The notes under the pieces: model-generated | Database searches by the model: none | Told to the model about the DNA's origin: nothing | The model's input: the letters and a program-made list of their open reading frames with translations, nothing else | In this document: positions 1 to 63,300 of the stretch, piece after piece | Layout: each line of letters opens with the position of its first letter | Numbering within the stretch: position 1 is the first letter of the stretch | Source of the DNA: Candidatus Magasanikiibacteriota bacterium | GTDB taxonomy: Bacteria > Patescibacteriota > Patescibacteriia > Magasanikbacterales > GWA2-37-8 | Length of the DNA stretch: 64,000 bases | NCBI GenBank assembly: GCA_023246655.1 | Contig: JAHFHX010000002.1 | Coordinates: 31,693-95,692, forward strand | Reading direction: 5' to 3' | Translations under genes and position numbers: made by a program

Positions 1-921
1 CCACTGTTCTACCGACAGCTCTTGCGCCCGGACTGTTGGTAGGAGGGCAAGTTCATCGACTATTTTGAGGAATTGCGCTTTATTTTTCTTCCCGATGACT
101 GGTTCCAAGTTTTTGCTCAGGAGCTTTCTGCGTTGCGCAAATCCGGCTTTGACAATTTTAAAAAACATCTCGTCAAATTCTTTATTTTTTAATTTTTCTT
201 TTTTAATTTTTATTTTAATCACCGCTGAGTCAACCTGCGGCACGGGCCAGAATGAAGCCCGTGGGACGACTTGGATAATTTTCGCGTCAGTATAATATTG
301 GACGGCGACGGAGAGGAGTGACATATCCCCTGCCTTGGCGCAAATACGTTCGGCCACTTCTTTCTGAACCATAAGGACCATCTCGGTCGGCGGATTTTCT
401 AATTCCAAAAACAACCGGATGACGGGCGAGGTGATTTGATAGGGAAGGTTGGCGACGACTTTGTACCTTGTCATTGCGAGGAGTCCCGATTCGCATCGGG
501 ACGACGCGGCAATCCCGTTGCTTTCAGAATCAGTGTTGTTAAAAAAGTTAGTCCTTGAAACAGGGGGATTGCCACGTCGGTCGTTCCTCCCTCCTCGCAA
601 TGACATAAGTACGTTCCCCCACACAATTTCAATATTTCTATATTTCTCTATTTCTTTTATCTCTGTCCAATACGGCTGGAGTTTTTTCTCAATCTCAAAA
701 GCAATTACTTGTTTTACCTCCGGCGCGAGCACAGCGGTGAGTACGCCGAAACCCGGGCCAACTTCAACAACCATATCATCTTTTTTGAGTTCGGCCGCCG
801 CAACAATTGTCTCAATCACCTCTGGATCAATAAGATAATTCTGCCCATATTTTTTGCTGGGGTGGAGGTTGTATTTTTGGCAAAGGTGGAGGAGGTGAGT
901 GGGGTTGAAGAGGCTTGACAT
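1..921 (-). CDS. rsmA: 16S rRNA (adenine1518/1519-N6)-dimethyltransferase RsmA/KsgA. The C-terminus runs off the window start. It contains an in-frame 135-bp palindromic insert and a Lys-rich low-complexity insert.
   Basis: Minus-strand translation from the ATG at 921 reads MSSLFNPTHLLHLCQKYNLHPSKKYGQNYLIDPEVIETIVAAAELKKDDMVVEVGPGFGVLT (SAM motif), then VVANLPYQITSP. The frame stays open through the 470-605 repeat and to position 1. Confidence 0.8.
   Translation of the reverse strand, partial: MSSLFNPTHLLHLCQKYNLHPSKKYGQNYLIDPEVIETIVAAAELKKDDMVVEVGPGFGVLTAVLAPEVKQVIAFEIEKKLQPYWTEIKEIEKYRNIEIVWGNVLMSLRGGRNDRRGNPPVSRTNFFNNTDSESNGIAASSRCESGLLAMTRYKVVANLPYQITSPVIRLFLELENPPTEMVLMVQKEVAERICAKAGDMSLLSVAVQYYTDAKIIQVVPRASFWPVPQVDSAVIKIKIKKEKLKNKEFDEMFFKIVKAGFAQRRKLLSKNLEPVIGKKNKAQFLKIVDELALLPTVRAQELSVEQW
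470..605. repeat. Family-A palindromic mini-element (GTCATTGCGAGGAG ... GCAATCCCC-loop-GGGGATTGC ... CTCCTCGCAATGAC), inserted in frame in ksgA.
   Basis: Terminal inverted repeats and an internal dyad are visible. Manual translation gives a 45-aa in-frame segment, SLRGGRNDRRGNPPVSRTNFFNNTDSESNGIAASSRCESGLLAMT. Confidence 0.75.
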
Positions 922-965
922 AACGAGCCAAAAGGATAGCACTATAAAAAAATAGAAGGATAATT

Positions 966-1334
966 TTATTTTTGTTTTAGCAACGAACCAATATACAAAT
1001 TCAATTGCATTTTTACTTCTTCATATTTTCTGATGAGGTCAGAACTTGATGCTTTTTCCATATATCCTCTACTCGCTGCGACAATAAGATGACTTTGCAA
1101 TTCTTGTAACTCACCGCGAGCAATATACAACACTCGAACTTTATCTGCATAATGAAATCGCCCATCAGCTTCTGCGAAATTAGCTAGCAAACTATTAGCC
1201 GACCGATTCATCTGGTCAACTAACCCGTATATTTCTGACTTGGGAAAAGTTTGTGACAGAATAAAAATTTTTTTCTGCAATTCATATGCTTTAAGCCACA
1301 GAGGAGCTTCATAAAATTTTTTATACCCTCGCAT
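966..1334 (-). CDS. Four-helix-bundle protein (23S rRNA intervening-sequence protein family).
   Basis: 122 aa. Pattern ...QMNRSANSLLANFAEADGRF...YIARGELQELQSHLIVA is typical of this family. Confidence 0.65.
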   Translation of the reverse strand: MRGYKKFYEAPLWLKAYELQKKIFILSQTFPKSEIYGLVDQMNRSANSLLANFAEADGRFHYADKVRVLYIARGELQELQSHLIVAASRGYMEKASSSDLIRKYEEVKMQLNLYIGSLLKQK

Positions 1335-1365
1335 ATTTTTATCATCTTATCCTTCTATCCTTTTA

Positions 1366-2534: not shown

Positions 2535-3227
2535 TCACTGAACTACAACTTCTCCTTGTCTTATAATTTCTAACTTACTACTGACCGCACTTACAATCGT
2601 TGTTGGCTTGTGCCGAGGCAGTTCGCCATAATTCAAAATAATATCTGGTTGTACTTCCCTATTTTCAAATTGTGCAATAATCTCAGCTGCAGTATAGATA
2701 TCCCCCGTATCGGCAATATTCCCTGACGTTGCGACAAGTGGCCGACCCAATTTTTCGGTGATGGATTTGAGGAGCGGGTGGGCGGTGACACGGATGGCGA
2801 GGGTGTTGTCCTGGGAGACGACGCCGGCGACTAACGTGTCATTGCGAGGAGCCCGATTCGCATCGGGCGACGTGGCAATCCCCCTGCTTTCAGAGCCAAT
2901 TGCCATAACGGGGAGATTGCTTCGCTTCGCTCGCAATGACAGGTATTCCCCCACCACCGTCACCGCCCCCGGCCAATACTTACTCGCAATTTTCTCCAAG
3001 AGCTCATTCCACATCACATATCGCCTCGCCATCTCCACCGTGGGAACGACAACAAGCAGCGGTTTATTGTTCCGCCGGCCTTTGATCTTGAAGATTCTAT
3101 CAACAGCTTCTTGATTCGTGGCGTCACAACCCAAGCCGTAGGAAGTTTCGGTAGGGAAAACGAGAGTTTTGCCGTTAAGGAGCTCGGAGACGATTTGGGC
3201 AAGGTTACACTCGGTGATAATCTGCAT
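2535..3227 (-). CDS. tsaC: L-threonylcarbamoyladenylate synthase TsaC/YrdC/Sua5 family, with an in-frame family-A insert.
   Basis: LVFPTETSYGLGCDATNQEAVDRIFKIKGR...LVATSGNIAD. The insert peptide is SLRAKRSNLPVMAIGSESRGIATSPDANRAPRNDTLV. Confidence 0.75.
   Translation of the reverse strand: MQIITECNLAQIVSELLNGKTLVFPTETSYGLGCDATNQEAVDRIFKIKGRRNNKPLLVVVPTVEMARRYVMWNELLEKIASKYWPGAVTVVGEYLSLRAKRSNLPVMAIGSESRGIATSPDANRAPRNDTLVAGVVSQDNTLAIRVTAHPLLKSITEKLGRPLVATSGNIADTGDIYTAAEIIAQFENREVQPDIILNYGELPRHKPTTIVSAVSSKLEIIRQGEVVVQ
2838..2941. repeat. Family-A palindromic element, in frame in tsaC.
   Basis: gtcattgcgaggagcccgattcgcatcggg...gcaatccccc...ggggagattgc...ctcgcaatgaca. Confidence 0.75.
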
Positions 3228-3228: not shown

Positions 3229-3338
3229 AAATTTTTAATTTACAATTTTCAATTTATACTGAATTTTCAATGTCTCAATTTTCATTGAAAATTAGTAAAT
3301 TGAATCATTGATTGAAAATTAAAAATTAGAAATTGAAA
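3229..3338. repeat. AT-rich dyad element (family D; TTTTCAAT x3 ... ATTGAAAA x4) between tsaC and prfB.
   Basis: The words caattttcaatt and attgaaaattaaaaatt recur at 29733-29800 and 21285-21303. Confidence 0.45.
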
Positions 3339-3339
3339 A

Positions 3340-13108: not shown

Positions 13109-13221
13109 TGTCATTGCGAGCGAAACGGAGAGTGAAGCGAAGCAATCTCCCTGTTTAAGTAATTCTCAAATCCAGGGGATTGCCACGTCGTTCGCCGCGA
13201 GGCTCACTCCTCGCAATGACA
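13109..13221. repeat. Family-A palindromic element (intergenic).
   Basis: gtcattgcgagcgaaacggag...gcaatctccc...ggggattgcc...ctcctcgcaatgaca. Confidence 0.7.
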
Positions 13222-21303: not shown

Positions 21304-21408
21304 TTGTCATTCCGAGGAGCGAGGAACAAGTGACGTGGCGATCTCCCCGACATGAGACATCGACGGGGAGATTGCTTCGTCGTCGTGCGAGCTCCTTCTC
21401 GCAATGAC
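21304..21408. repeat. Family-A palindromic element inserted between groES and groEL.
   Basis: gtcattccgaggagcgagg...gatctcccc...ggggagattgc...ttctcgcaatgaca. Confidence 0.7.
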
Positions 21409-21410
21409 AG

Positions 21411-22467: not shown

Positions 22468-23881
22468 AGCTCAAAGTCATCGCGAGCACAACCGTCCCCA
22501 TTATATGCCCCACATACATACTCCAGAGCCAGTGGTCAAAAAGACCGAGGATGAAGATTGAAATTAAAATTGGAAGAAAGAAACGGTTATGTTTCCAAAG
22601 CGCAGTAGCGCAGTAAGATAGTAGCGCGGTAGCAACGATTAAACCAATGATGCCGAGCTCGGCGAGAATTAGTAGATATATATTATGAATCGGCTGATAC
22701 TGCCATACGGGCAGTTTTTTGTTTTCTGAATAAAGAGCGTATGTATAGGCACCGGGGCCGACGCCAAGGAGCGGATGCGTTGTAATTATTTTTTTAAAAT
22801 TATGATATTGCTGGATGCGAGATGCTAGTGACATGTGTTCGAGACGGCCAAGGCTTTCCGTGCGGACGAGAAAGAGGGGTTTGAGAGCAAGAAATAAAAC
22901 GACGACTACGGCGGCGGAAAATAAGAGTGGACGAACCAACCCCCCCCCTTCATCCCTCCCCTTGTTGGGGAGGGCAACGTTCTCGTGCGGTTCTCCTACC
23001 CCTATCCCGCCGCAGCGGGACCCCGCCTCGATGGCGGTGGTAAGGGGGAGGGCGCAGGAGGGGGTTTTGTTGCGCCTCATTACAACTAACAACGTAATGA
23101 TCCCTACTACTACAGTTATCCACGCCGCCCGAGAGAATGATAACAGCAAGCCTGCTGTGACGAATAACTGGCTGACTATGAGGCCAACGCGTTTCCAGCT
23201 AGGCGGAGTTTTAAGATACACGATCAACCCAACGAGAAAAATAATCGCTAAAAATCCTCCCAAAATATTTGGTGATCCAAAACTACCGTAAGCCCGGAGC
23301 CAACGTTGATCACCAACCTCAATGACAAACGTGCCGAGTTCTTGCGCGGTGTGCGGGGCGATTCCCGAAAATGGGAGGTGAGAAATTGATTGAGTAAAAA
23401 ATTGCCAACATGCGAGGAGACCTTGCACGACACCGCCGAGCCAGAATGCGAAGAGAAGCGACGAAACGTTTCCCCTCTCCCCCGGGGAGAGGGACGGAGG
23501 GTGAGGGTTCGCCGTTCGCATCAACATAACACACAAACACGCCGCCCCAATTAATCGAAAAACAAAATTAAATGAAACACTTGGACTCAAACTATGAAAA
23601 ATTTCCAATATCAAATATCCAATAACTAATATCCCAATTGCTACATTTCGCTTATTCCCCTGCCCTGCTTTGACGCGTTGCCAAAATTCTTTTTGTCGGA
23701 ATAAATCGATCGCCGACAAGATGATAATTATCCAGAGCAGAATTTCTGTCGCGTACCAACTTCCACTTCCATATTCCCAAAATCCACTGTTTAAAAAACG
23801 TGGCTCATAGACGAAGCGGGTTTGCCATGGCAAGAGAAACAGAAACAGTATCAATAAATATTGGATTATTTTTTTGAGCAT
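22430..23881 (-). CDS. O-antigen-ligase/polymerase-like polytopic membrane protein with two in-frame GC-rich inserts.
   Basis: 483 aa with about 10 TM segments. Inserts at about 22925-23075 and 23455-23515 are CCCTCCCCttgttGGGGAGGG-type hairpins. Confidence 0.45.
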   Translation of the reverse strand: MLKKIIQYLLILFLFLLPWQTRFVYEPRFLNSGFWEYGSGSWYATEILLWIIIILSAIDLFRQKEFWQRVKAGQGNKRNVAIGILVIGYLILEIFHSLSPSVSFNFVFRLIGAACLCVMLMRTANPHPPSLSPGERGNVSSLLFAFWLGGVVQGLLACWQFFTQSISHLPFSGIAPHTAQELGTFVIEVGDQRWLRAYGSFGSPNILGGFLAIIFLVGLIVYLKTPPSWKRVGLIVSQLFVTAGLLLSFSRAAWITVVVGIITLLVVMRRNKTPSCALPLTTAIEAGSRCGGIGVGEPHENVALPNKGRDEGGGLVRPLLFSAAVVVVLFLALKPLFLVRTESLGRLEHMSLASRIQQYHNFKKIITTHPLLGVGPGAYTYALYSENKKLPVWQYQPIHNIYLLILAELGIIGLIVATALLSYCATALWKHNRFFLPILISIFILGLFDHWLWSMYVGHIMGTVVLAMTLSSTLLHQPRSVLE

Positions 23882-23965
23882 AGATTTGGGCGGGCGCTCC
23901 CAACTGTCATTTCGACTGAAAGGAGAAATCTTTCGAAGTGCTGATCTTGAAATTTATAAATAATA

Positions 23966-25072
23966 CTAAAATTGCCTCTCCGAAAGATCTCTCACGTTCG
24001 TTCGAGATGACAATTGTTGTATTTTCTCTAACCACTTATTTCTAATCGCAAGCCTTGTGTCATTCTCATGAAATTTTAATACCCCGTCCGCGATGACGAC
24101 TCCGTGGTCGTTTCGCTTGGCTTTTTCTTTAAGCGAAAATTTCATTTTCGTCAGTTGTAATTTTTTGGCTTCATTTTCAACTACATTACCATAACTCCCC
24201 TGCCACATTGCTTCCCAGGCACGTTTCCAGAGGCGACCGAGCCGAGTGTCAGCAACATTATTCTTGTCATTTCGAACACGTTCACTGCGTTCAGTGTAAA
24301 CTCCGTGAGAAATCTCTGGCTCACTCGACGACGGACAGAGATTTCTCCCGCCAGAGGCGGGTAGGCGTCGCGCTGTGTCCGCCTTTGGCGGAAGGCTCGC
24401 TCGGAATGACAAATTGGGTAAATATCGTTCTACCCATCGATTGGCCTGTAGAAATTTTTCATAATAATTTTCCGGATCATACACCGGCGTCATCATATTA
24501 AGCCAATAGGCAAAGTGGATGTCATCATCAGCGATTCTCCATGGAGCCAAATTGAGATGATCGATATCCACATAGAATGAGAGACAAATTCGATCAGCTT
24601 GATGTGCACCGTATGTCCTAAGACCAAACAGGCGTAAAATGAGATTAGTAAAAAACCGCACAATCCAAATTCGATTTTTATCACTCACTATAAAAAAATC
24701 AATATCACTCTCAGCTCGGGCCATAGCCGCACCAACGGAATTACAAACAAAAATTGCTTTGAGAAATGGTACAGAACGAATGAATTTAACAGCGCGGCGG
24801 GCAATAATTAATTTTTGGTCGGTAATTTCTGCGGCGCGTTGACGCTCAGCAATTAAATTCTCACGGCCGGGGAGAAAATAGTAACCACAGCCGAGTTTGT
24901 AGTTCATAGCTTTTAGTTCATAATTTGTCTCACCACAAGTGCTCATAAATTCTGCATGACCTATTCTGGGCGGCGTCCATAAATAGCAAAACAGCTCCTC
25001 GTGCATCAAAGGGAAATTAATAAGATCAAAATAAGTTAACGTTTTTACTATTGATTGATCTAATGGTTTCAT
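23966..25072 (-). CDS. Nucleotidyltransferase-domain protein with an in-frame family-B insert.
   Basis: GAAMARAESDIDFFIV (GS...SDxD minimal NTase motif). The insert reads PPKADTARRLPASGGRNLCPSS. Confidence 0.45.
   Translation of the reverse strand: MKPLDQSIVKTLTYFDLINFPLMHEELFCYLWTPPRIGHAEFMSTCGETNYELKAMNYKLGCGYYFLPGRENLIAERQRAAEITDQKLIIARRAVKFIRSVPFLKAIFVCNSVGAAMARAESDIDFFIVSDKNRIWIVRFFTNLILRLFGLRTYGAHQADRICLSFYVDIDHLNLAPWRIADDDIHFAYWLNMMTPVYDPENYYEKFLQANRWVERYLPNLSFRASLPPKADTARRLPASGGRNLCPSSSEPEISHGVYTERSERVRNDKNNVADTRLGRLWKRAWEAMWQGSYGNVVENEAKKLQLTKMKFSLKEKAKRNDHGVVIADGVLKFHENDTRLAIRNKWLEKIQQLSSRTNVRDLSERQF
24264..24412. repeat. Family-B palindromic element (GTCATYYCGA ... GAAATCTCTG ... 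CAGAGATT ... GCTCGCTCGGAATGAC).
   Basis: It shares the core gagaaatctctggctcac.gacgacggacagagat with elements at 36287, 37812, 41199 and 49720. Confidence 0.7.
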
Positions 25073-29731: not shown

Positions 29732-29732
29732 T

Positions 29733-29801: not shown

Positions 29802-30788
29802 TCACTGCACTACTATATCACCAATCTGGTCCGTTCGCAAAATATCCGCCCCCGTGCGTTCGAGTCGCTTGAACACGCGGTGTGATGGATGGCCATATTT
29901 ATTTTTACCAACTGAGACGATGGCAGTTTTTGCCCGCACAATACTTAAAAATTCTTCACTGCTCCCCGAATCACTGCCATGGTGACCGACTTTGAGAGTG
30001 TCGGCGTGGAGGGCGGGGCAGGTGCCGACGCGCTCCCGCGCTCCCATTTGCGAGTCCTCCCCCTGCCCCCTCCCCTGCGGTGGAGGGGTGACGTTAGCTC
30101 CCCTCCCCACCGCAGGCCGTAGGTCCTCCGAGGAGGGTGGGAGGGTTAGGGAGAGGTCTGGCGTTGTCGTTCCACAATACTTCTCCATCAACACATCCTC
30201 CAACGGCACCTCCATATCGCCCGTGAATAAAAATCTTTCATTTCCGTGCGTCAGTTTAAAAACAATGGAGTAGTTATTACTATCGGCCGCGGCAACGTCC
30301 AAGTGGAGCGCCGGGTCGGGTGAAATAAATTGGAGTGTATCGCTGGCAATCGTCCAAGTCGTGGGCGACGCCATCGTAATAATCTTAGCCCCCGCTTCCT
30401 CATGCATCATTTTATTCCATTCTTGCCAATACGGATCATATTTTTTCTCGTGCCCATTCACAATAATATTTTTTACATTGTAGCGTTGCAGCACATCAAC
30501 ACACCCACCGTAGTGGTCCAGGTCCGGATGGGTGGCAACCACATAATCAATAGTGCGATTGTAAAATGGCAAATGGCGACCGAGTGCACTGAGCACGATT
30601 TTATTCGGTCCACAGTCTACCAGCATCTTTTGTCCATTTTCAAACTTGATGAGCGCACTATCCCCTTGGCCGATGTTGAGGAAGTCGACTTCGAAGTGGT
30701 GGGGGCGGTGGGAATCAAAATAAACATACAGGAGCATCCCTCCCGCTAATATCAAGCTTAGAATAATAACTACAATAATTTTTTTCAT
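29802..30788 (-). CDS. ComEC-type metallo-beta-lactamase domain protein (detached C-terminal ComEC module) with an in-frame GC-rich insert.
   Basis: FLNIGQGDSALIKF...VATHPDLDHYGG...LKVGHHGSDSGS...VSVGKNKYGHPS. Confidence 0.75.
   Translation of the reverse strand: MKKIIVVIILSLILAGGMLLYVYFDSHRPHHFEVDFLNIGQGDSALIKFENGQKMLVDCGPNKIVLSALGRHLPFYNRTIDYVVATHPDLDHYGGCVDVLQRYNVKNIIVNGHEKKYDPYWQEWNKMMHEEAGAKIITMASPTTWTIASDTLQFISPDPALHLDVAAADSNNYSIVFKLTHGNERFLFTGDMEVPLEDVLMEKYCGTTTPDLSLTLPPSSEDLRPAVGRGANVTPPPQGRGQGEDSQMGARERVGTCPALHADTLKVGHHGSDSGSSEEFLSIVRAKTAIVSVGKNKYGHPSHRVFKRLERTGADILRTDQIGDIVVQ
30040..30160. repeat. Family-C GC-rich hairpin insert.
   Basis: cCTCCCCtgcggtggaGGGGtg ... cCCTCCCCaccgcaggccgtaggtcctccgaggaGGGTGGGAGGG. 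Confidence 0.45.
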
Positions 30789-32083: not shown

Positions 32084-32086
32084 ATT

Positions 32087-35384: not shown

Positions 35385-38300
35385 CTACACTACTATACTT
35401 ATTAATTTCCCCCTCACATAAATCACCTTCTTCGGCTCTTTACCATCCAGCCACTTCTGAATTTTTTCGCTCGCGAGCGCTTGGTTTTTAATTTCGTCTT
35501 CGGATATATCAGCTGGCACCTCAAGCTGCTCACGCACTTTGCCATTTACTTGAACAACAATGGTGATCATGGACTCTTTGGCGAGCTCGGGATCAAACTT
35601 TGGCCAAGGGGAATACGCTAATATCTCTTTATCTCCATATAACTCCCATAATTCCTCCGCAATATGTGGGGCAAAAGGTGAGAGAAGTTGAATTAATATT
35701 TGATATTGGATATTAGATATTTTTTCTTCTTTCATCATTTCATTCGTGAGTTCCATCAGCTTCGCAATGGCAGTATTAAAATGCATTGCTTCGATATCAT
35801 CGGAGACTTTTTTGATGGTTTGATGAAGAAGGGTCGTTATCTTGTCATTGCGAGGAGCCGAAGGCGACGCGGCAATCTCCCCTTTTGACTCTTGTCGGGG
35901 GGATTGCTTCGCTCGTTCCTCGCTCGCAATGACACGTTCTTGAAGTGACCATACCCGATCCAAAAATCTCCGCACGCCAACCAACCCATTCGTATCCCAC
36001 TTCACCGCCTGATCAAACGGCCCCATGAAACCAATATACGCGCGAAAAGCATCCGTACCAAATTGTTCAATCATTTCATCGGGGTTGATAACATTCCCGC
36101 GGCTCTTACTCATTTTCTCACCATCCGGACCCAAAATCATGCCATGACTGGTACGTTTTTTATATGGCTCGCGCGTAGGCACTACGCCAATGTCGTATAA
36201 AAATTGATTCCAGAAACGGGAATACAATAAGTGAAGCACCGTGTGTTCCATGCCGCCGTTATACCAATCAACACCACCCCCGCGTTTGTCATCCCGAGCG
36301 AGGCTCGCGCCGACGAGGGATCTCTGTCCGTCGGTTGGTGAGTGAGCCAGAGATTCCTCCTTCGTCGTCGGAGTGACAGGATTACCATCCATCCAGTACC
36401 GCAGCTTCTCCATTGATGCAAATTCTTTATCGTTATTCGGATCCGCGTATCTTAAGAAATACCAAGAAGAACCGGCCCAATTCGGCATAGTATCAGTTTC
36501 CCGTTTCGCTGGTCCGCCACAACGTGGGCAGGTGGTGTTCACCCAATCACTCATCGCCGAGAGCGGACTTTCGCCCGTGTCGGTTGGTTCGTATTTTTCT
36601 ACTTTGGGGAGTTTGAGTGGGAGTTCGGACTCGGGAAGCGGGATCCAGCCGGTTTGTTCTAATGCTTTGAGAATTTCTGGTTCCTGGCCATCATTGGTAA
36701 AATGTTGGGCAACTGGTTCCACGAATTGAGCTGAAGCGTGCATTGCTTTCATCATTTCTCGTGCCTGATTTTCTGGAATTACTGGAAAATTTTTATCAAC
36801 TACAAGCACAATTTCTTTCGCGTTTTTTTTAATTTTCTCAAAATTAAATTGCCAATTGAAACTTTGCTCAACTTCCGGTCGTGCGCGATCAGCAAATTCG
36901 GGACGAATAAAACAATCAACCAAAACAAGTTTCGCGATTGTTTTTTTTAAATGTTCTACCAAATTCATGGCTACAGCTCCACCAAGGCTCGTGGCAACAA
37001 TAACAGTGTTTTCGTTTATTTCTGTTTTTTCCAATACCGATTTTACTTGTTCCTCAATATTTGGCTGCATCGGGTTTGGGAGGTCTGGTGCAAATACCGT
37101 ATGACCTTGTTTTTCTAGTTCTTCTTTAAGCCGCGGGAAAAATATTCCTTGAGAGCTGCCTTTGAATCCATGAAGTAAAATATAGTTATATTTTTTCTTT
37201 CTGCAATTCTCACATTTTACGAGGGGAATCGGTTCGCCCCAGTAGCGCTGACGAGAGAAAACCCAATCGCGGAGTTTGAAATTAATCTGCCGACGAGCCA
37301 TTCCTTTTTGCTCTAACCAAGGTAAAATCTTTTCGCGCGCTTCCGCAGAAGTTAAACCATCAAACTGACCGGAGTTAACCAGAGTGCCTTCACTGGGGAA
37401 GCACTCTTCTAACTTTTGCACGCGCTCCCACAGCGCATCGTCGGCTGGTCGGATAGAAACTTTGAGCGGCAGGCTATATTTTTTAGCCATAGCAAAATCG
37501 CGCTCGTCGTGGGCATCGGCAAATACCGCGCCAGTGCCGTACTGAGCTAACACAAAATCGGCAATCCAAATAGGCATTTTGTCGCCGGTTGCTGGGTTCA
37601 GTGCATACGATCCGGTGAAGACCCCCGACTTGTCCTTTTCTTCAGCAGTACGTTCGATGTCAGTTTTTTGCGCAGTCTCCTGAACATATTTTTCAACCGC
37701 TTTTTTCTGTTCGGGAGTAGCTAATTGTTTTACGAGCGGGTGTTCAGGTGCAATGACTAAGAATGTACCCGAAAAAATGGTGTCGAGTCGGGTGGTGAAG
37801 ACTTCGATTGGTTGAGACAGGGATTCCTCGTCGGCGCGAGCCTCGCTCGGAATGACAGTAAAACGGACGACAGCCCCTTCCGAGCGCCCAATCCAATTTT
37901 CCTGTTGCACGCGCGCGGGAGTAATATAGTTAACTTCTTTGAGACCGTCGAGGAGTTTATCGGCATATTTGGTAATGGCAAGCATCCACTGCTCTTTATC
38001 TCGTTTTTCCACGGGCGTGCCACAACGTTCACAACAGCCGTCCACCACCTCTTCATTAGCGAGGCCAGTCTTATCTTTCGGACACCAATTAACAGGCTGA
38101 TTTTTTTTGTAAGCTAACCCGTGTTTATATAATTGTAAAAAAATCCACTGCGTCCATTTGTAATATGTGGGATCGGTGGTATCAACAGCGCGCGACCAAT
38201 CAAAACTATAGCCCAACGCTTTAAGCTGGCGGGTGAAATTGGCAATATTCTCGGCCGTAACTTCCGCGGGTGGGCGACCGGTTTTAATCGCAAAATTTTC

Positions 38301-40300: not shown

Positions 40301-40359
40301 ATGTTGGTAGTATAGCTATTTTATTGAAAAAAATCAAGCCTTTATAAAGAACGTTGAAA

Positions 40360-40460
40360 CCCCACCCTGCGTCCCTCCCCTTGTTGGGGAGGGGAATCGT
40401 CAGCCAACGGCCATTGACTCTCTCCCCTATGAGGGGAGAAACGTAGAGAGGGGTTTGGTC
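40360..40460. repeat. Family-C GC-rich double hairpin (intergenic).
   Basis: cCCTCCCCttgttGGGGAGGGg ... TCTCCCCtatgaGGGGAGA. Confidence 0.45.
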
Positions 40461-40470
40461 GTTCGCGCTA

Positions 40471-41499
40471 TCATCGCTGACATTTTGGACAATAATGCGT
40501 CCCCCGCCCTGCCGCCTTAATTTTCTTAATCACTATCCCACATTGCTTGCACGGCTGCCCGTCACGATCGTAAACTTTAAGGAAATCTGTGTAATTACCT
40601 TTTTTACCAGAGCTGTCAAGAAAATTTCGGAAGGTTGTGCCGCGATGTTTGAGGGCTTCCTGAAGAATTACAGGAATAGCGTGGAATAATTTTTTTTGCT
40701 CTTCTTTTGTCACGGAACCAACACGACGATTGGGACGAACGCCAGCCCGAAAGCAGGCTTCATCAACATAGATGTTGCCTAAGCCCGCGATGAGTTCTTG
40801 ATTGAGGAGCAATGCTTTGAGATTAGTATTTTTTCTTTTTTTGAAGAGGGAGGAGAAATAGTCAAAACTAAATTCCTGGGAACGAGCCCTCACCCTGCGT
40901 CCCTCTCCCGCAGGGCGAGGAAGCGAAATGGGTTCAGGGCCATATTTTTTAAGCACTCTTTCAACTTCAGTTTGAGAAGCTAATTTCATATACCCAAACA
41001 GGCGGAGGTCATTAAAAAATAACTCTCCCCCATCGGCAAACACAAAAACAATTCTGGTCCACTGATTTGGCAAACATTCAATATCTTTTTCCGAAAGTTT
41101 ATGGCCGCCCGCGACTATCTCGATTTCATTTTTTATTTTCTTCTCATAAATAAGCTGGCCGGTCATTTTGAGGTGGACGAGCAAAGCGCCGACTTTTTTG
41201 TCATTTCGAATCCCCCGTCGCAGGGGGTGAGAAATCTCTGGCTCACCGACGACGGACAGAGATTCCTCGTCGCCGCGAGTCTCGCTCGGAATGATAATTG
41301 AACGCTTGAGATACCAAATCATCAGTTTGCCACGGCGCTCAATTTTAGTAATAGCGTTACCGGTGAGTGCGTGAACAAATTTTGTACTCATGCCGCCGAC
41401 ACTCTTTTTATTACGTACCTCAACGTGAACAATTTTCTTGTTCAAGATCTTTTTTTCTAAATCGCGGCGGATGGTTTCAACTTCGGGGAGCTCGGGCAT
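40471..41499 (-). CDS. mutM: Formamidopyrimidine-DNA glycosylase MutM/Fpg with in-frame family-B and family-C inserts.
   Basis: True N-terminus is MPELPEVETIRRDL. C-terminal zinc finger CKQCG...CPKCQ. Confidence 0.85.
   Translation of the reverse strand: MPELPEVETIRRDLEKKILNKKIVHVEVRNKKSVGGMSTKFVHALTGNAITKIERRGKLMIWYLKRSIIIPSETRGDEESLSVVGEPEISHPLRRGIRNDKKVGALLVHLKMTGQLIYEKKIKNEIEIVAGGHKLSEKDIECLPNQWTRIVFVFADGGELFFNDLRLFGYMKLASQTEVERVLKKYGPEPISLPRPAGEGRRVRARSQEFSFDYFSSLFKKRKNTNLKALLLNQELIAGLGNIYVDEACFRAGVRPNRRVGSVTKEEQKKLFHAIPVILQEALKHRGTTFRNFLDSSGKKGNYTDFLKVYDRDGQPCKQCGIVIKKIKAAGRGTHYCPKCQR
41199..41297. repeat. Family-B element, in frame in fpg.
   Basis: gtcatttcgaatcccccgtcgcagggggtgagaaatctctggctcaccgacgacggacagagattcctc...ctcgctcggaatga. 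Confidence 0.7.
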
Positions 41500-49192: not shown

Positions 49193-49224
49193 GCGAAGTT
49201 CTTAGTTCACAAAAAATTAAAAAC

Positions 49225-49252: not shown

Positions 49253-49273
49253 GTCTACTATGAACTAAGAACT

Positions 49274-49719: not shown

Positions 49720-49860
49720 TGTCATCCCGAGGAGCCTTCCGCCAAAGGCGGACACAGCGCGAGGCCTGCCCGCCTCTGGCGGGAGGGATCTCTCTGTCCG
49801 TCGTTGGTTGATTGAGACAGAGATTCCTCACCCCCTGTGACGGGGGATTCGGAATGACAA
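49720..49860. repeat. Family-B palindromic element (intergenic, extended).
   Basis: gtcatcccgaggagccttccgccaaaggcggacacagcgcgaggcctgcccgcctctggcgggagggatctctctgtccgtcg...gacagagattcctc...ggaatgacaa. Confidence 0.7.
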
Positions 49861-49908: not shown

Positions 49909-50853
49909 ATGTCTGAAAAACTTTCTCAACCACAAATCAACATTTTCCGCCGTACTATCTACTCCTACTACAAAAAATATGGTCGTATTTTGCCGTGGCG
50001 CCAGACGCATGACCCCTACAAAATTATAGTCTCGGAAATTATGCTCCAACAAACGCAGGTGGACAGGGTGATTCCAAAATATGAACGCTGGATAAAAATC
50101 TTTCCTGATTTTCTTACCCTCGCCAAGGCACCGCTTAAAAAAATACTAAAAGAATGGCGGGGTTTGGGGTATAATCGGCGGGCGATTAATTTAAAAAGGT
50201 TGGCGGAAATTATTGTGAGGGCGTATATCAATACGCCCCTACCGAATGACCCAAAAATCCTCGAAACGCTTCCTGGCATTGGACCACACACCGCCGGCTC
50301 AATTGCGGCATTTGCGTTTAACCAACCAGTGACGTTTATTGAGACGAATATTCGGACAGTCTTTATCCACTATTTTTTTCAAAGCGGACGAGCAAATTCC
50401 CCCCTCGAGGGGGGTAGTGGGGGTGTAAGACTGTTGCGTGGCCGTTTGTCCAACGGTTCGCAACGCAAAGGACTTACACCCCCCGGTGAGCCCCCCTCGA
50501 GGGGGGATTTGGTGAGTGACGCTGACATTATGCCCCTCGTGGAGCAAACCCTGGACCGTAAAGATCCCCGCCGTTGGTATAATGCGCTGATGGACTATGG
50601 GGTATATCTAAAAAAACTTCATAAAAATCCCAGCCGCCGTAGTGCGCATTATATAAAACAAAGCAAATTTGAAGGGTCGAATCGGCAATTACGGGGGATG
50701 ATTTTAAAATGTTTAGTTACTCACAGAAAAATGACTATTCGAGAAATAACATCTGAGATATCTGGAGATAAGGAGATGGTGGAAAAAAATCTGCAGCAAC
50801 TAACTGCAGAAGGATTTTTAAAAATTACTGGAAAAAAATACCAACTAAGCTAG
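49909..50853 (+). CDS. HhH-GPD DNA glycosylase (MutY/Nth-like) lacking the 4Fe-4S Cys cluster, with an in-frame family-C insert.
   Basis: YKIIVSEIMLQQTQVDRVIPKYERWI...WRGLGYNRRA...LPGIGPHTAGSIAAFAF. No Cx6Cx2Cx5C cluster is present. Confidence 0.65.
   Translation: MSEKLSQPQINIFRRTIYSYYKKYGRILPWRQTHDPYKIIVSEIMLQQTQVDRVIPKYERWIKIFPDFLTLAKAPLKKILKEWRGLGYNRRAINLKRLAEIIVRAYINTPLPNDPKILETLPGIGPHTAGSIAAFAFNQPVTFIETNIRTVFIHYFFQSGRANSPLEGGSGGVRLLRGRLSNGSQRKGLTPPGEPPSRGDLVSDADIMPLVEQTLDRKDPRRWYNALMDYGVYLKKLHKNPSRRSAHYIKQSKFEGSNRQLRGMILKCLVTHRKMTIREITSEISGDKEMVEKNLQQLTAEGFLKITGKKYQLS
50395..50520. repeat. Family-C GC-rich palindromic insert (cccctcgagggg x2).
   Basis: ccCCCCTCGAGGGGggtagtggggg...ggtgagCCCCCCTCGAGGGGGGatt. 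Confidence 0.45.
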
Positions 50854-59899: not shown

Positions 59900-59953
59900 T
59901 AATACTTCATGCTTTTATTACAGTTTCTGCACATAATGAGAGGGGCGTGGCCG

Positions 59954-60385
59954 TTATTTGGAATTGGTAAACAATTTAAATCCGCGCACCCAATCATGGT
60001 GGTCTAAAAAAGCAAGGAGCACGCGCTGTTGCACACTTTCTAATATATCTTCATCATTGATTCGTATTTGCGCATCAGACATACCAGCGTGTCGCCTTGT
60101 TTCCGAATACAGCAACTTTCTTACGCATTCAAGAGTGTTAGCCTCCAACCGACTCCCCCAAATATTTGCTACATACCGTTCAAAATCCAGGTAACTGTTC
60201 AAAAACGCGGCCTGGTCGAGTTCTTGCTCGGTAATGTCTGGTTTAATCATTTCAAAAATTTTTTCGGCCAATTGCCTCCGTTCTTCCTGGCGCTTTTCCT
60301 CTTCCTGGCGTTTTTGCTTCCCGGCCTGGCTTACTGCGCTTTTTTCTTCAAACATATCCAGTGGGGTACCACGGTATCGTTTCAT
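59954..60385 (-). CDS. Hypothetical protein.
   Basis: 143-aa ORF whose stop overlaps the dnaE 3' end. Confidence 0.4.
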   Translation of the reverse strand: MKRYRGTPLDMFEEKSAVSQAGKQKRQEEEKRQEERRQLAEKIFEMIKPDITEQELDQAAFLNSYLDFERYVANIWGSRLEANTLECVRKLLYSETRRHAGMSDAQIRINDEDILESVQQRVLLAFLDHHDWVRGFKLFTNSK

Positions 60386-63300
60386 AATAATGAATTTAAA
60401 GCTGCCCTGACTTTGTCGGGGTCATTTATTTTATAGGTGGTTTTAATTCTCTTTTCTCCAACCTTAAGATATACTGTTTTGTCTCCTGGAGAGTTTCTTA
60501 AAATTTCTTTAATTGCTTCAGCTTTGGTTTTCATCTGTTCTGGCGACAAATTGATTTCAAAATTATTAGTATTTAATTTTTCTGCCACCTCTGGAGCAAC
60601 AAAATTGCGCAATGAACTCCCCCCATTATTAATAGCCAGCTGCTGCACCAAAAGCGGTAAGGTGTCTTTGCTTACAGTGTACGCTTTCTCCACAAATAAT
60701 TTATCATCGCCCTCATCTTCGGAGGTTTTACCTATTACGCAAACTGGTTTGCCTTCCACCCAAACCTCTTTGGTGGCTTCATAGGTGCGGGGAAATACCA
60801 AGAGTTCTAAGCTCGCGGTGGTATCCTGGATGGTGACAAACATCATAGGCTGACTGCTGCGAGTAATTTTCTTTTTGGTACTTTCAATGACACCGCCCAC
60901 TACTACCCACTGACCGCGCCCCTGGGCCCCGAGTTCGGTGATGGGAGTGAGGACAGAATGCAATAACTTTTGATATTCGGCAAACGGGTGGGCCGTGACA
61001 TAGAGACCAAGCAATTCCTTTTCCCACGCCATTTTCTCTTCAGAAGATGCTGGTGGGGCAGCGGTGAGTCGCACGGCATTGCTAAAGCCAACAGCAGTCC
61101 CTGCAAAAAGCGATGCTTGTTTGGTAGTAATTTCCTCGTGGTGACCTTTAATAAACGAAAGCAAATTATCTATATTAAAAAGTAATATTCCCCGATCATA
61201 CCCCAAGCTATCCATGGCGCCACATTTAATTAAACTCTCCAGTGATTTTTTATTAAGATCTTTATCCTGAACACGACTGAGAAAATTCTCTAAATTTGTA
61301 TACCGGCCATGTTCTTTGCGCTCACGATACATAACTTCAGCAATATGTTCCCCAAGATTTTTAATGCCATTGAGACCGAAGCGGATGTGGGCGCCGTTGG
61401 ACGAAATCTCCCTCTGATCTCTTCCTTCACTCCGCTCAGGATGGGCTCTTTGCGAAGGAGAGGCGGCGATGTTCTCCCTCGCCTCCGCAGACCGTAGGCC
61501 CTCCGAGGAGGGTGAGAGGGTGGGGGGAGAGGTCTCGCTCGCCACCATCGCAAAATTTTTAAAACTCTCATTGACATCTGGTGGCAGCACTTTAATTCCC
61601 ATCCGTTCACACTCATGAATAATCGGTGGTACCTTATCCACATCGCCACTTTCGGCAATTAAGACTGCCGTCATGTACTGAATGGGGAAATTAGCTTTCA
61701 AATACGCGGTTTGATACGCCACCACGCCATAGCTCGCCGCGTGGGCTTTGTTAAAACCATACGCCGCAAATGGTTCAATGAGCTCCCACAACCGATGGAT
61801 CTTTAATTCCGAAATTTTACCGTGTTCTTTGCAGCCTTTAAAAAATTTCTCTTTTTGTTTTGCCATCTCAGCCGGAATTTTTTTACCCATGGCTTTGCGA
61901 AATTTATCAGCCTCTTCCCAATTATAACCCGCGAGCTGAATGGCAGTAAGGAGCACATCATCTTGGTATACAATAAGTCCAAGCGACTGATCAAGATAGT
62001 CTTTCATACGGGGATCCAGATACTCAATGAGCTCAGGATGATTTTTACGGCGAATATATTCGGGGATTTGCTCCATAGGCCCCGGACGAAACAGAGCTAC
62101 CATGGCCATAATATCAAAAATAGTGGTAGGCTTAAGTTCTTTAAGATAGCGCGTCATGCCTGAGCCAGCTAATTGGAATACCCCTACGGTTTCCCCGCGT
62201 GCCAGCATGTCGTATGTTTTTTTGTCATCCCAGGGCTGTAAATTATGAATATCAACTTTCTGCCCCGTAGTTTTTTCCACAATCTCCACCGCATGCCCCA
62301 AAATTGAAAGGTTTCTGATGCCTAAAAAATCCATTTTTAATAGCCCGGCTGCTTCCACCGCATGCATTTCATATTGTGTCACAATTTTTTCTCCCCCACT
62401 TTCAAACTGTACGGGTGTAAAATCCGTAAAGGCGGTTGGAGCAATCACCACTCCGGCGGCGTGGATGGAGGTATGACGAGCGCACCCTTCTATCTTTTGA
62501 GCCAAATCAATGAGGCGCTTCACCTGAGGATTTTTTGTATATAATGCTTTTAGATCAGGTTCCAGATCCAGCGCCTTAGCAATGGTCATTTGAAACCCCT
62601 GCGCACCAAACGGAATCATTTTGGAAACCTGGTCACAAAATGAATAACTATACCCCAAGGCCCGGCCCACATCACGGATACTACCCCGGGCAGCCATGGT
62701 ACCAAAGGTTATAATTTGCGCTACTTTATCGGCACCATATTTTTGTGTCACATACGCAATCATTTCATCACGGCGGTCGTCGGCAAAATCAGCATCAATA
62801 TCTGGGGGGCTTGGTCGAAATGGATTAAGAAAACGTTCAAAAGGCAACTTAAAGTGAAGCGGATTAACACTCGTGATTCCCATGGCATAGGAGACAATGG
62901 AACCAGCCCCAGAACCACGCGTGGTTTCAATAATACTGTGGGTGCGAGCGTAATTTACATAATCCGCCACGACCAAAAAGTACGATGAATAACCTTTTTT
63001 GACAATGGTATCAAGTTCGTATTCCACGCGTTTAATTACTTCCTCGGTCATCTCGGTTAAAAGGGGCAGACGGTGGTAAACCTCGTGCCGAAGATACTCA
63101 TCGGCGGTTTGACCAGCGGGAATTTCAATCGCCGGAAAATGCCATTTATTTAATTTAAGTTTTAAATCAATACGCTCCGCAATTTTTACTGTATTTTCCA
63201 GCGCCTCGGGTAGATGTTTAAACCGGGCAGCGATTTCCGCGCCACTCGCCAAAGAATAATCAACTTCTGCCATGGTCGGACGGTTTGGTTCATCTACCGT

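What the first reader, a model, noticed from the sequence alone, without database searches (positions are those of the whole stretch)
470..61550. Three families of palindromic mini-elements inserted in frame into essential genes
I count about 20 copies of short (about 45-150 bp) palindromic elements. Family A has GTCATTGCGAGGAG ends with a GCAATCTCCCC / GGGGAGATTGC core. Family B has GTCATYYCGAG ends with a GAAATCTCTG / CAGAGATT core. Family C consists of GC-rich CCCTCCCC-loop-GGGGAGGG hairpins. Most copies sit inside ORFs and keep the reading frame open. The affected genes are ksgA, tsaC, leuS (three copies), comEC (three copies), the ComEC-MBL gene, fpg (two copies), dnaE, the MutY-like gene, the NTase gene and the O-antigen-ligase-like gene. 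I checked in-frame status by hand only for the ksgA copy at 470-605. They add recurring peptides such as ...EERAKQSPRQE.KGEIAASP.APRNDK or ...PPKADTARRLPASGGR... to otherwise conserved enzymes. Other copies are intergenic and even split groES from groEL. Rickettsia palindromic elements are the known precedent for in-frame palindromic insertions into protein-coding genes. The families here appear unrelated in sequence to those.
Basis: seen in the sequence. Interest (0 to 1): 0.85.

Follow-up and report, generated by a model that had tools for sequence, protein, structure and literature searches.

The report
Nuclease-linked palindromes inside essential CPR genes
A candidate-phyla-radiation bacterium has about 22 short hairpin-forming DNA repeats, most read through in frame inside essential genes; the main families belong to the known repeat class that partners with the small Ssn single-strand DNA nuclease, and one copy carries that nuclease gene.

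Summary
The window (a Magasanikbacteria/Patescibacteria contig) has 14 TGTCAT...ATGACA palindromes (families A and B) and 8 G/C-rich hairpin elements (family C). Sixteen of the 22 sit inside intact ORFs and are read through: ksgA, tsaC, leuS x3, comEC x3, fpg x2, dnaE and others.

The interpretation needs revising. Families A and B are not an undescribed class. Each arm has the layout of the CGTC/TGTC-tagged REP, dRS3/NTS or "Ssn-related motif": GTC, a covarying AT-xyz stem, then ATC. The literature already places Rickettsia RPE-4 and RPE-6 in that class.

That protein is 41% identical to the Neisseria SsnA locus and keeps the three catalytic residues.

A sister genome shows presence/absence differences. 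Its own ssn gene sits between different arms (family D), and family D is the type expanded there. One shared element inside fpg shows compensatory changes.

What is new is the expanded-loop arm variant, the CPR host, and the high rate of in-frame insertion (9/14 here against 19/124 in other genomes). There are also leads to two parallel nuclease/hairpin pairs: DUF559 with family C, and PDDEXK_3.

Verdict: a new variant of a known kind, of moderate interest.

The parts
469..605 (.). A1. Family A palindrome inside ksgA (gene on the - strand). It encodes 46 aa: MSLRGG...LLAMT.
   Evidence: It is unmatched by PDB KsgA. AF2 pLDDT falls below 50 only at residues 112-143. It is orthologous in the sister genome, where the left arm is 45/45 identical.
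2837..2941 (.). A2. Family A palindrome inside tsaC (Sua5/YrdC), 35 aa.
   Evidence: It is an insertion relative to PDB TsaC. In the sister genome the same site holds a DUF559 insert.
13109..13221 (.). A3. Family A palindrome, intergenic, between the thioredoxin-like and DsbD-like genes.
21305..21409 (.). A4. Family A palindrome lying exactly between the groES stop and the groEL start.
23905..24012 (.). B1. Family B palindrome that supplies the last codons and the stop of ORF 23966-25072.
24265..24411 (.). B2. Family B palindrome, 147 bp, in frame in ORF 23966-25072, which has no family hit.
32086..32514 (.). A5. A 429-bp family A palindrome with the ssn gene in its loop. It replaces the native 3' end of comEC and abuts the start of the methyltransferase gene.
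   Evidence: It is absent from the sister genome, which has a 65-bp spacer there.
32140..32445 (-). ssn. A 101-aa single-domain GIY-YIG nuclease gene (Ssn family).
   Evidence: Pfam PF01541, E = 2.8e-16. It is 41% identical to the N. gonorrhoeae ssnA locus, with BLASTP E = 1e-24. Y6, Y17 and E64 are conserved.
32876..32973 (.). A6. Family A palindrome in frame in comEC.
   Evidence: The sister genome has a C-type insert in the same loop.
33506..33606 (.). A7. Family A palindrome in frame in comEC.
35843..35934 (.). A8. Family A palindrome in frame in leuS (site 3, anticodon-binding domain).
36287..36378 (.). B3. Family B palindrome in frame in leuS (site 2, before the GGMEH motif).
   Evidence: It is a clean insertion of about 38 aa relative to T. 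thermophilus LeuRS.
37816..37857 (.). B4. Solo family B arm in frame in leuS (site 1, editing-domain loop).
   Evidence: Its left junction is identical to that of a family D element in the sister genome.
41199..41296 (.). B5. Family B palindrome in frame in fpg.
   Evidence: It is orthologous in the sister genome at 92.9% identity, with two compensatory pairs.
49720..49859 (.). B6. Family B palindrome, intergenic, upstream of the HhH-GPD (MutY-like) gene.
34085..34177 (.). C1. Family C compound G/C-rich palindrome in frame in comEC.
   Evidence: It is absent from the sister comEC.
40357..40473 (.). C2. Family C element abutting the fpg stop codon.
22938..23068 (.). C3. Family C element in frame in the Wzy_C O-antigen-ligase-like gene.
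23474..23511 (.). C7. Short C-type hairpin in frame in the Wzy_C gene.
30101..30162 (.). C5. G/C-rich repeat in frame in a metallo-beta-lactamase-fold gene. It is 86% identical to C6.
61476..61538 (.). C6. G/C-rich repeat in frame in dnaE (HHH_6 region).
40883..40920 (.). C8. Short C-type hairpin in frame in fpg.
50395..50510 (.). C4. 116-bp G/C-rich nested palindrome in frame in the HhH-GPD (MutY-like) gene.

Best explanation
Families A and B are inverted dimers of Ssn-related hairpin motifs. These motifs are the TGTC-tagged variant of the CGTC-REP / dRS3 / NTS / SRM superfamily. The dimers behave like MITEs.

Each arm reads T-GTC-[AT-xyz ... z'y'x'-AT]-C. The tags are outermost. The loop is expanded to 10-30 nt and often holds a mini-hairpin of its own. 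The longest copy carries the cognate nuclease gene, ssn, in its loop. ssn encodes a small GIY-YIG enzyme.

Characterised relatives of that enzyme bind the hairpin only as single-stranded DNA and cut a few nucleotides 5' of the GTC tag. In this arrangement that cut would fall at the element boundary on each strand.

Copies spread or are replaced over evolutionary time. In this lineage they survive mainly where an in-frame, stop-free insertion lands in a permissive surface loop of a protein. There they are translated as 15-50 aa disordered peptides, such as xVIAS...PRNDx or xSLRG...LLAMT.

Shown here:
- the anatomy of the elements and the covariation in the arm stem;
- the homology and catalytic residues of the nuclease;
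- the in-frame status of every copy;
- presence/absence differences between sister genomes;
- expansion of the arm type that flanks each genome's own ssn gene.

Inferred:
- that this Ssn cuts these arms;
- that cutting drives copying or insertion;
- that the peptides are actually made.

Family C is a separate G/C-rich hairpin class. Its likely partner is a DUF559 (Vsr-like) endonuclease.

The confidence given applies to the identity of families A and B as Ssn-associated TGTC-tagged repeat dimers read through in frame. The step 'Ssn cutting drives their spread' is about even odds.
For: The ssn gene sits in the loop of a family A palindrome.

The nuclease matches the Ssn family.
- It is 41% identical to the N. 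gonorrhoeae ssnA locus (BLASTP E = 1e-24, tblastn E = 5e-15).
- That locus sits among 7 exact NTS repeats.
- The residues shown by mutagenesis to be required (Y6, Y17, E64) are conserved.

Homologues of the nuclease are flanked by the same kind of arm.
- In Bacteroidota and Patescibacteria the flanks are near-canonical NTS.
- In Atribacterota the flanks are family A-type ends.

The arm alignment of 33 arms supports the hairpin layout.
- T-G-T-C-A-T and A-T-C are invariant.
- The stem is 99.4% paired, with 28 double-sided changes, and 0 of 500 shuffles reach this.
- The invariant bases are the ones Chenal et al. found critical for cleavage (the 3 nt before the palindrome) and for binding (the C after it).

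The sister genome gives evidence of turnover and of matching between nuclease and repeat.
- The ssn unit and C1 are absent there. An NTS-type element sits in frame in the sister fpg only.
- The sister ssn is flanked by family D arms. The sister has about 9 D arms and 2 A arms; the window has 16 A and 0 D (Fisher p = 1.2e-5).
- The orthologous B5 element is 92.9% identical, against 58-84% for the flanking coding sequence. Four of its 7 differences are compensatory.

The inserts are additions to the host proteins. They are unmatched in PDB homologues and lie in the variable loops of orthologue alignments. AF2 gives pLDDT below 50 only inside the KsgA insert.
Against: The published SRM search pattern finds 0 matches in the window, because stems are 5 bp and loops 10-30 nt rather than 8-9 bp and 4-5 nt.

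No family B-flanked ssn gene was seen, so family B has no demonstrated partner.

GIY-YIG enzymes hydrolyse DNA and do not join strands, so no insertion chemistry is known. No target-site duplication and no clean empty site could be defined.

In Neisseria the same enzyme/repeat pair is interpreted as a host regulator of transformation. There the repeats are only 2% intragenic.

Translation of the inserts has not been shown.
Confidence: 0.75

Rival explanations
1. This is a domesticated host function, not selfish spread. As proposed for Neisseria, Ssn and its hairpin sites form a single-strand DNA restriction or recombination-control system. Sites inside essential genes are then kept by selection, for example to limit replacement of those genes by incoming transforming DNA in a ComEC-dependent CPR bacterium.
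For: There is structure-preserving compensatory change, and 93-100% arm conservation, inside coding sequence that is otherwise about 75% identical. Chenal et al. showed an effect on transformation in Neisseria. Several copies lie in or beside comEC.
Against: The same protein loops carry different families in sister genomes and across Patescibacteria, and many orthologues have no insert. That pattern fits turnover better than a fixed function. The ssn unit itself differs in presence and position between the sister genomes. In other phyla the same palindromes are mostly intergenic.
Confidence: 0.2
2. The apparent inserts are native, conserved parts of the proteins, or they are assembly artefacts or pseudogene scars.
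For: Some inserts are shared with the sister genome at the same position, which could look like conserved protein sequence.
Against: The same DNA sequence recurs in unrelated genes and in intergenic DNA. Solved homologues and many orthologues lack the segments. All host ORFs are intact, with domains on both sides of the insert. An independent assembly is 100% identical over five elements.
Confidence: 0.02
3. These are REPIN-type elements moved by an IS200/IS605-like tyrosine transposase (RAYT), or classical MITEs moved by a DDE transposase encoded elsewhere. On this view the GIY-YIG gene is only a passenger.
For: They have a palindromic dimer architecture like REPINs. No target-site duplication is seen, as with IS200/IS605. 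Only 64 kb of the genome was examined.
Against: The tag is TGTC, not GTAG. Di Nocera et al. found that no transposase gene is flanked by CGTC repeats. By contrast, ssn homologues in six loci from five phyla sit between such arms. The arm type tracks the resident ssn gene.
Confidence: 0.08
4. The inserts are present in the DNA but are not part of the mature proteins. They would be removed at the RNA or protein level, or bypassed during translation.
For: There is no direct evidence. The elements form very stable hairpins, -40 to -70 kcal/mol as RNA.
Against: In-CDS copies keep the host frame and are stop-free, while intergenic copies have fewer open frames: 0-2 against 2-4. That is expected only if the in-CDS copies are translated. 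There are no intron or intein features, and Rfam gives no match. From my own knowledge, RPE inserts are reported to be retained in mRNA.
Confidence: 0.05

Closest known systems
Ssn nucleases and their NTS/SRM hairpin repeats (Chenal et al. 2025, Nat Commun 16:2388)
   Same: Both have a small single-domain GIY-YIG protein, here 41% identical with Y6, Y17 and E64 conserved. Both have the repeat layout GTC + hairpin starting with AT + C. In both, the gene sits between inverted repeats, and enzyme and repeat variants go together.
   Different: The arms here have a 5-bp stem and a 10-30 nt loop, so they fail the published SRM pattern. The tags point outward, whereas the NTS nearest the gonococcal gene point inward. 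64% of the A/B copies are inside genes, against 2% in N. meningitidis. The host is a CPR bacterium, a group that the paper's main text does not mention.
CGTC-tagged REP superfamily, including Neisseria dRS3 (Di Nocera et al. 2013, BMC Genomics 14:522)
   Same: Both have a (C/T)GTC tag, AT at the first two stem positions, a short tail beginning with C, and mostly inverted dimers that can fold as one large hairpin. Both have some intragenic copies, notably in replication and repair genes.
   Different: The published families have 8-9 bp stems and 4-5 nt loops, and were reported to lack any dedicated enzyme. Here the loops are long and a nuclease gene sits inside one dimer.
Rickettsia palindromic elements, RPEs (Ogata et al. 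2000, 2002)
   Same: Both are palindromic repeats inserted in frame into many unrelated, conserved genes. Both add peptides at loops while the proteins stay intact. By the literature, RPE-4 and RPE-6 are CGTC-tagged repeats, which is the same superfamily.
   Different: The phylum and lifestyle differ, and so do the sequence families. Here a parent copy with a nuclease gene is present and several unrelated hairpin classes coexist. Direct sequence comparison with RPEs could not be made with these tools.
REPINs and RAYT transposases
   Same: Both are inverted pairs of short hairpin repeats that act as non-autonomous units tied to a single-copy enzyme gene flanked by the same repeats. Neither has a target-site duplication.
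   Different: The tag is GTAG in REPINs and TGTC here. The partner enzyme is a HUH tyrosine transposase in REPINs and a hydrolytic GIY-YIG nuclease here. REPINs are almost always extragenic.

Membership tests
[quoted passage not shown] | Small single-domain GIY-YIG protein of about 94-100 aa. | tested here: met
   The protein is 101 aa. Pfam PF01541 covers residues 6-81 and there is no other domain.
[quoted passage not shown] | Homology to characterised SsnA. The paper's criterion is tblastn E < 1e-10. | tested here: met
   tblastn against the N. gonorrhoeae ssnA locus gives E = 5e-15 and 40.7% identity over 90% of the query. BLASTP gives E = 1e-24. The locus carries 7 exact NTS repeats.
[quoted passage not shown] | The catalytic residues shown by mutagenesis: Y6, Y17 and E64. 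| tested here: met
   VYIL, LYIG and REKQLK all align.
[quoted passage not shown] | Cuts only single-stranded DNA, a few nucleotides 5' of its hairpin motif. | not testable with these tools
   This needs purified protein and oligonucleotide assays.
SRM / NTS repeats | Matches the published degenerate pattern HGTCWYN(0-2)YYVSBRHN(0-5)WNVSBRGN(0-2)RNCYNB. | tested here: not met
   There are 0 matches in the window. The same pattern does match the ssn flanks in L002 and L003, and both arms of the in-frame element in the sister fpg.
SRM / NTS repeats | Conserved GTC before a hairpin, and a conserved C right after it. | tested here: met
   T, T, C, A, T and A, T, C are invariant columns in 33 arms. 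The stem is 99.4% paired, with 28 double-sided changes, and 0 of 500 shuffles reach this.
CGTC-tagged REP superfamily | CGTC tag (a TGTC variant is allowed), and AT at the first two stem positions. | tested here: met
.
CGTC-tagged REP superfamily | Stem of 8-9 bp and loop of 4-5 nt. | tested here: not met
   The covarying stem is 5 bp and the loops are 10-30 nt.
Rickettsia palindromic elements | Palindromic repeat inserted in frame in many unrelated conserved genes. | tested here: met
Rickettsia palindromic elements | Sequence membership in RPE-1 to RPE-10. | not testable with these tools
   No Rickettsia chromosome was reachable. The R. felis plasmid pRF has no such motif. The literature equates RPE-4 and RPE-6 with CGTC repeats.
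REPIN / RAYT | GTAG tag. | tested here: not met
   The tag is TGTC in all 27 arms.
REPIN / RAYT | A RAYT tyrosine transposase gene flanked by the repeats. | not tested
   The ORFs of the window were not all screened. The only gene found inside a dimer is the GIY-YIG gene.
Classical MITE (deletion derivative of a transposase-encoding IS) | Terminal inverted repeats plus a target-site duplication. | tested here: not met
   Inverted termini are present, but no direct repeat flanks any of the 12 complete copies checked.

The most novel reading that the evidence does not exclude
Magasanikbacteria, and probably many other CPR bacteria, may host at least three parallel 'small nuclease in a palindrome' systems whose short derivatives colonise protein loops:
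- Ssn (GIY-YIG) with TGTC-tagged arms;
- DUF559 (Vsr-like) with CCCTCTCC-type hairpins (family C);
- PDDEXK_3 (GxxExxY) with AACACRGATT-type inverted repeats.

On this reading the nucleases are the agents that copy or maintain the repeats. Such elements would be a main source of the extra segments seen in CPR proteins. A whole nuclease can even sit in frame as an internal domain of an essential enzyme, as DUF559 does in the sister tsaC.

This would give CGTC repeats and RPEs their long-missing mobilising enzyme. It would also define a class of hydrolytic-nuclease-driven mobile elements.
Probability: 0.3. Interest if true: 0.8.

Novelty: new variant of a known kind. Interest (0 to 1): 0.55.

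Why it matters
CGTC-tagged repeats, dRS3 and the related RPEs have been catalogued for over twenty years without a known mobilising enzyme. The Ssn nuclease was linked to them only in 2025, and then as a regulator of transformation.

This locus adds comparative evidence that the nuclease and its hairpins behave as a mobile unit:
- the gene sits inside one of its own palindromes;
- sister genomes differ in presence and absence of copies;
- each genome has expanded the arm type that flanks its own ssn gene.

It also shows that RPE-style remodelling of essential proteins happens outside Rickettsia, in a CPR bacterium with a very small genome. That affects gene calling, protein alignment and structure prediction for this large uncultured group. 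Finally, it offers many natural enzyme/site pairs for single-strand DNA tools.

Tried and rejected
- Rfam at gathering thresholds found only two tRNAs and a SAM riboswitch, and nothing at the elements.
- The published SRM pattern gave no hit in the window.
- NCBIfam has no model that names the nuclease.
- BLASTN of the 429-bp unit against plasmids found nothing.
- To compare with RPEs directly, I tried the Ogata 2002 paper, which is not held, and R. felis plasmid pRF, which has no motif. A second Rickettsia plasmid accession was not in the collection.
- A search for target-site duplications and for clean empty sites gave no result. The flanks show no direct repeat, and the sister-genome loops are too diverged at the junctions.
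- Looking for ssn genes next to family A palindromes in 120 loci from other genomes found only 2. Copies far outnumber nuclease genes, so this is uninformative about linkage.
- Literature searches found no paper linking GIY-YIG with MITEs, CPR with MITEs, or DUF559 with hairpin repeats.
- I considered that the two family B arms 1.57 kb apart in leuS (36287 and 37857) bracket one large element. I rejected this. They are separate sites, each occupied independently in relatives.

Full report
**What is in the sequence**

The window has 45% G+C and comes from a Patescibacteria (CPR) genome. The closest named relatives of its LeuRS and KsgA are Candidatus Magasanikbacteria.

GTCATTGCGAGGAG occurs 13 times against 0.2 expected. 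GGGGAGATTGC occurs 11 times against about 1 expected. Self-BLAST and inspection define 14 loci with TGTCAT...ATGACA ends. A profile of the arms finds 27 arms, which make 13 complete palindromes and one solo arm, and nothing else.

- Eight loci are family A (TGTCATTGCGAG ... GCAATCYCCCC).
- Six loci are family B (TGTCATYYCGAR ... GRRATCTCTG).
- Eight further loci are G/C-rich hairpin elements (family C). This family is heterogeneous. Three are compound palindromes with AAACCCC...GGGGTTT ends and two inner hairpins. The others are single hairpins or a separate nested palindrome.

**In-frame status**

I checked every copy, not only ksgA.

- Nine A/B copies lie inside long intact ORFs and are read through: ksgA, tsaC, ORF 23966-25072, comEC x2, leuS x3 and fpg.
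- Seven C copies do the same: comEC, the Wzy_C gene x2, an MBL-fold gene, dnaE, fpg and the HhH-GPD gene.
- Two copies supply the last codons and the stop of the upstream gene.
- Three are intergenic. One lies exactly between the groES stop and the groEL start.

Host identities were confirmed with Pfam.

The A/B copies in ORFs are read in only two ways: xVIA/VIP...RNDx or xSLR...AMTx. The third frame hits TGA in the ATGACA end. In-ORF copies have 2-4 stop-free frames out of six, and intergenic copies have 0-2. That fits selection on translated copies.

**The segments are insertions**

- Against solved structures, the KsgA segment (46 aa) falls between two aligned blocks.
- Fpg has about 56 extra residues plus a second insert of about 14 aa.
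- LeuRS has a clean insert of about 38 aa at site 2 and an extra 9 aa at site 1.
- TsaC has about 33 extra residues.
- Alignments of LeuRS and KsgA orthologues show that relatives have gaps at exactly these places.
- An AlphaFold2 model of KsgA is confident overall (pLDDT 85.6). Its only stretch below 50 is residues 112-143, inside the insert.
- An independently assembled ENA contig is 100% identical over 9,075 bp, spanning five elements.

Artefact, pseudogene and 'native sequence' readings can therefore be set aside.

The copy at 32086-32514 is 429 bp long because its loop holds a 101-aa ORF with a GIY-YIG domain. Homologues from a Bacteroidota genome and a Patescibacteria genome are flanked by TGTCATTCCCGCGAAAGCGGGAAWCCAG, with an inverted ...ATGACA end on the far side of the gene.

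Searching the literature for that string led to Chenal et al. 2025. Their findings:

- Small single-domain GIY-YIG proteins (Ssn, cd10448) bind a hairpin repeat only as single-stranded DNA.
- In Neisseria that repeat is the NTS, CGTCATTCCCGCGMAVGCGGGAATCYRG. More generally it is called an SRM.
- The enzymes cut a few nucleotides upstream of the repeat.
- 42% of homologues are flanked by SRMs on both sides.
- NTS-ssnA-NTS looks like an insertion sequence.

**The window protein is an Ssn homologue**

The plasmid collection happens to hold mislabelled N. gonorrhoeae chromosomes. The window protein matches the gonococcal ssnA locus at 41% identity (tblastn E = 5e-15, BLASTP E = 1e-24). That locus lies among seven exact NTS copies. 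Y6, Y17 and E64, the residues whose mutation abolished cleavage, all align.

**The arms are SRM relatives with expanded loops**

The published SRM pattern finds nothing in the window. The layout is nevertheless the same. Every arm reads T-GTC-AT-xyz ... z'y'x'-AT-C.

I aligned 33 arms: 24 from the window, 7 from the sister genome and 2 flanking a Bacteroidota ssn.

- The columns T, T, C, A, T and A, T, C are invariant.
- The five-pair stem is 99.4% paired, with 28 double-sided changes. None of 500 shuffles reaches this, and every slid control collapses.
- The stem types seen are TGC/GCA, TTC/GAA, CTC/GAG, CCC/GGG, TCC/GGA, CCT/AGG and TCT/AGA.
- The invariant bases are those Chenal et al. found to matter most: the three bases before the palindrome for cutting, and the C after it for binding.

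The difference lies in the loop, which is 10-30 nt and often holds its own mini-hairpin, instead of 3-5 nt.

**An older description of the same class**

Di Nocera et al. 2013 described CGTC-tagged REPs. They report that:

- the tag is often TGTC;
- AT occupies the first two stem positions;
- the repeats occur mostly as inverted dimers;
- some copies are intragenic, notably in replication and repair genes;
- the repeats 'lack a dedicated transposase'.

They also state that Neisseria dRS3 is CGTC-1, and that R. conorii RPE-6 and RPE-4 are CGTC-1 and CGTC-4. On published evidence, then, the A/B families share a superfamily with part of the RPEs. I could not test this directly, because no Rickettsia chromosome was reachable and plasmid pRF has no such motif.

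**Comparison with a sister genome**

Two contigs of MAG GCA_009694865.1 are syntenic with the window at about 75-80% nucleotide identity.

(a) The ssn unit is absent there. comEC and the methyltransferase gene are 65 bp apart, with a terminator between them. C1 is also absent.

(b) The sister fpg carries a 62-bp element made of two arms that do match the published SRM pattern. It is in frame (MSFPRKRESSGDGSPIKSGMT). The window has none at that site.

(c) The sister has its own ssn, 53% identical to the window's, between prfA and tsaC. It is flanked by family D arms (TGTCATYCTGAG...RAAGRATC). Its short elements in leuS sites 1 and 2, in truB and in the MBL-comEC spacer are also family D. The window has 16 A arms and 0 D arms. 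The sister has about 2 A and 9 D (p = 1.2e-5).

(d) LeuRS sites 1-3 and both comEC loops are occupied in the two genomes by different families. At LeuRS site 1 the left junction is identical.

(e) Two elements are clearly orthologous.
- B5 in fpg is 92.9% identical, against 58-84% for its flanks. Four of its seven differences are two compensatory pairs that keep the arm stem and a mini-hairpin.
- The left arm of A1 in ksgA is 45/45 identical, in a gene that is 74.7% identical overall.

The hairpin structure is therefore under constraint even inside coding sequence.

**Breadth**

The contigs come from many phyla: Chloroflexota, Bacteroidota, Cyanobacteria, Proteobacteria, Planctomycetota, Verrucomicrobiota, Firmicutes and several CPR groups.

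Only 19 of 124 such copies are spanned by a long ORF, against 9 of 14 in the window (p = 1.8e-4). Chenal et al. give 2% for N. meningitidis.

In 22 Patescibacteria KsgA orthologues, the loop that holds A1 carries element-derived peptides of several families in at least 12. Two other loops are also hot spots. Frequent in-frame occupancy therefore looks like a trait of this CPR lineage, not of the repeat class in general.

**Mechanism**

Shown:
- the anatomy of the elements;
- the membership of the nuclease in the Ssn family;
- the match between the conserved bases and the published determinants;
- turnover between sister genomes;
- matched expansion of nuclease and arm type.

Inferred:
- With the tags outermost, the known cut position (about 3 nt 5' of the tag) falls at the left boundary on one strand and at the right boundary on the other. 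The nuclease would therefore free or nick the unit at its ends whenever the DNA is single-stranded, as in replication, repair or transformation.
- Host repair or recombination then copies or replaces elements.
- Selection keeps only the in-frame, stop-free copies that sit in tolerant loops.

How a hydrolytic nuclease leads to insertion at new sites is unknown. No target-site duplication was found. The main rival is a domesticated role in controlling recombination or transformation, as in Neisseria. The structural conservation is compatible with either reading.

**Family C and a third system**

In the sister genome, the tsaC site that holds A2 in the window holds a DUF559 (Vsr-like) endonuclease domain instead. 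It is read in frame and is flanked on both sides by C-type hairpin modules.

Among 12 metagenomic relatives of that DUF559 domain, 8 have perfect pyrimidine-arm C-type hairpins within 260 nt. That is 15 hairpins in 5.6 kb, against 0.14 expected from control loci. The window itself has no DUF559 gene.

Separately, a PDDEXK_3 (GxxExxY) gene in the fpg-leuS spacer lies between 38-nt inverted repeats. The sister genome has a short palindrome with related ends at that same spacer, and a full unit on the other side of leuS.

Both are leads, not conclusions.

**Verdict**

It is wrong that the main families are unrelated to described repeats. This is a new variant, in a new host group, of the CGTC-REP / SRM-Ssn kind, with an unusually high rate of coding insertion. 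I found no paper in the searchable library that links such elements to CPR genomes. A 2024 review still names RPEs as the outstanding case of in-frame MITE insertion.

Noticed in passing
window 38559-39060 (gene 38586-38969, - strand); L124 9893-10000 and 12700-13200: A PDDEXK_3 / GxxExxY small nuclease gene lies between 38-nt inverted repeats (AACACAGATTA...TAATCTGTGTT) in the fpg-leuS spacer. The sister genome has only a short palindrome of about 82 bp with related ends (TAGAACACGGATT...) at that spacer. It has a full PDDEXK_3 unit, 31% identical, on the other side of leuS. This looks like a third nuclease-in-palindrome mobile unit.
   Followed up: partly
L129 4690-5250 (sister genome tsaC); L132-L143: A DUF559 (Vsr-like) endonuclease domain is inserted in frame in the sister tsaC, at the same site as window element A2. 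It is flanked on both sides by C-type hairpin modules. C-type hairpins are about 100-fold enriched next to DUF559 relatives in metagenomes: 15 observed against 0.14 expected.
   Followed up: partly
window 36651-37202 (LeuRS residues 453-636): An alpha/beta-hydrolase domain is inserted in frame in LeuRS, just after the CxxC motif. It is absent from the closest relative (901 aa) and from T. thermophilus LeuRS. It is present in many Patescibacteria LeuRS. Others carry NUDIX or HAD domains there. In the window, NUDIX is a separate gene immediately after leuS (34961-35383).
   Followed up: partly
L124 9138-9199: A 62-bp element whose two arms match the published SRM pattern, one of them a near-canonical NTS, sits in frame in the sister fpg gene. 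It encodes MSFPRKRESSGDGSPIKSGMT.
   Followed up: yes
window 41987-42096 and 21718-21790: Two intergenic palindromes of 73-110 bp are built from repeated ACGAAT/TACGAA-like hexamers. They may be short derivatives of the PDDEXK_3-type unit.
   Followed up: no
window 3230-3344 and 29720-29801: Very AT-rich palindromic repeats (14-22% G+C; AATTTTCAATTTTTAATTTACAAT) lie in two intergenic regions upstream of genes on the - strand. They are similar to each other (73-85% identity).
   Followed up: no
window 49076-49384: This is a structured intergenic region with nested inverted repeats, including a 39-nt near-perfect hairpin at 49196-49274. It lies in a 1-kb stretch with no ORF of 100 aa or more. 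Rfam gives no match at gathering threshold.
   Followed up: no
window 57002-57109, 52052-52123, 56838-56911: A SAM riboswitch lies upstream of ORF 57645-58937, and there are two tRNA genes.
   Followed up: no
window 35744 (end of ENA contig L128): The independent short-read assembly breaks about 100 bp before element A8. This suggests these repeats fragment metagenome assemblies.
   Followed up: no
window 40471-41574: The listed fpg ORF starts at an upstream TTG. The true start is the ATG at residue 26 (MPELPEVE...), as the catalytic N-terminal proline of Fpg requires.
   Followed up: yes
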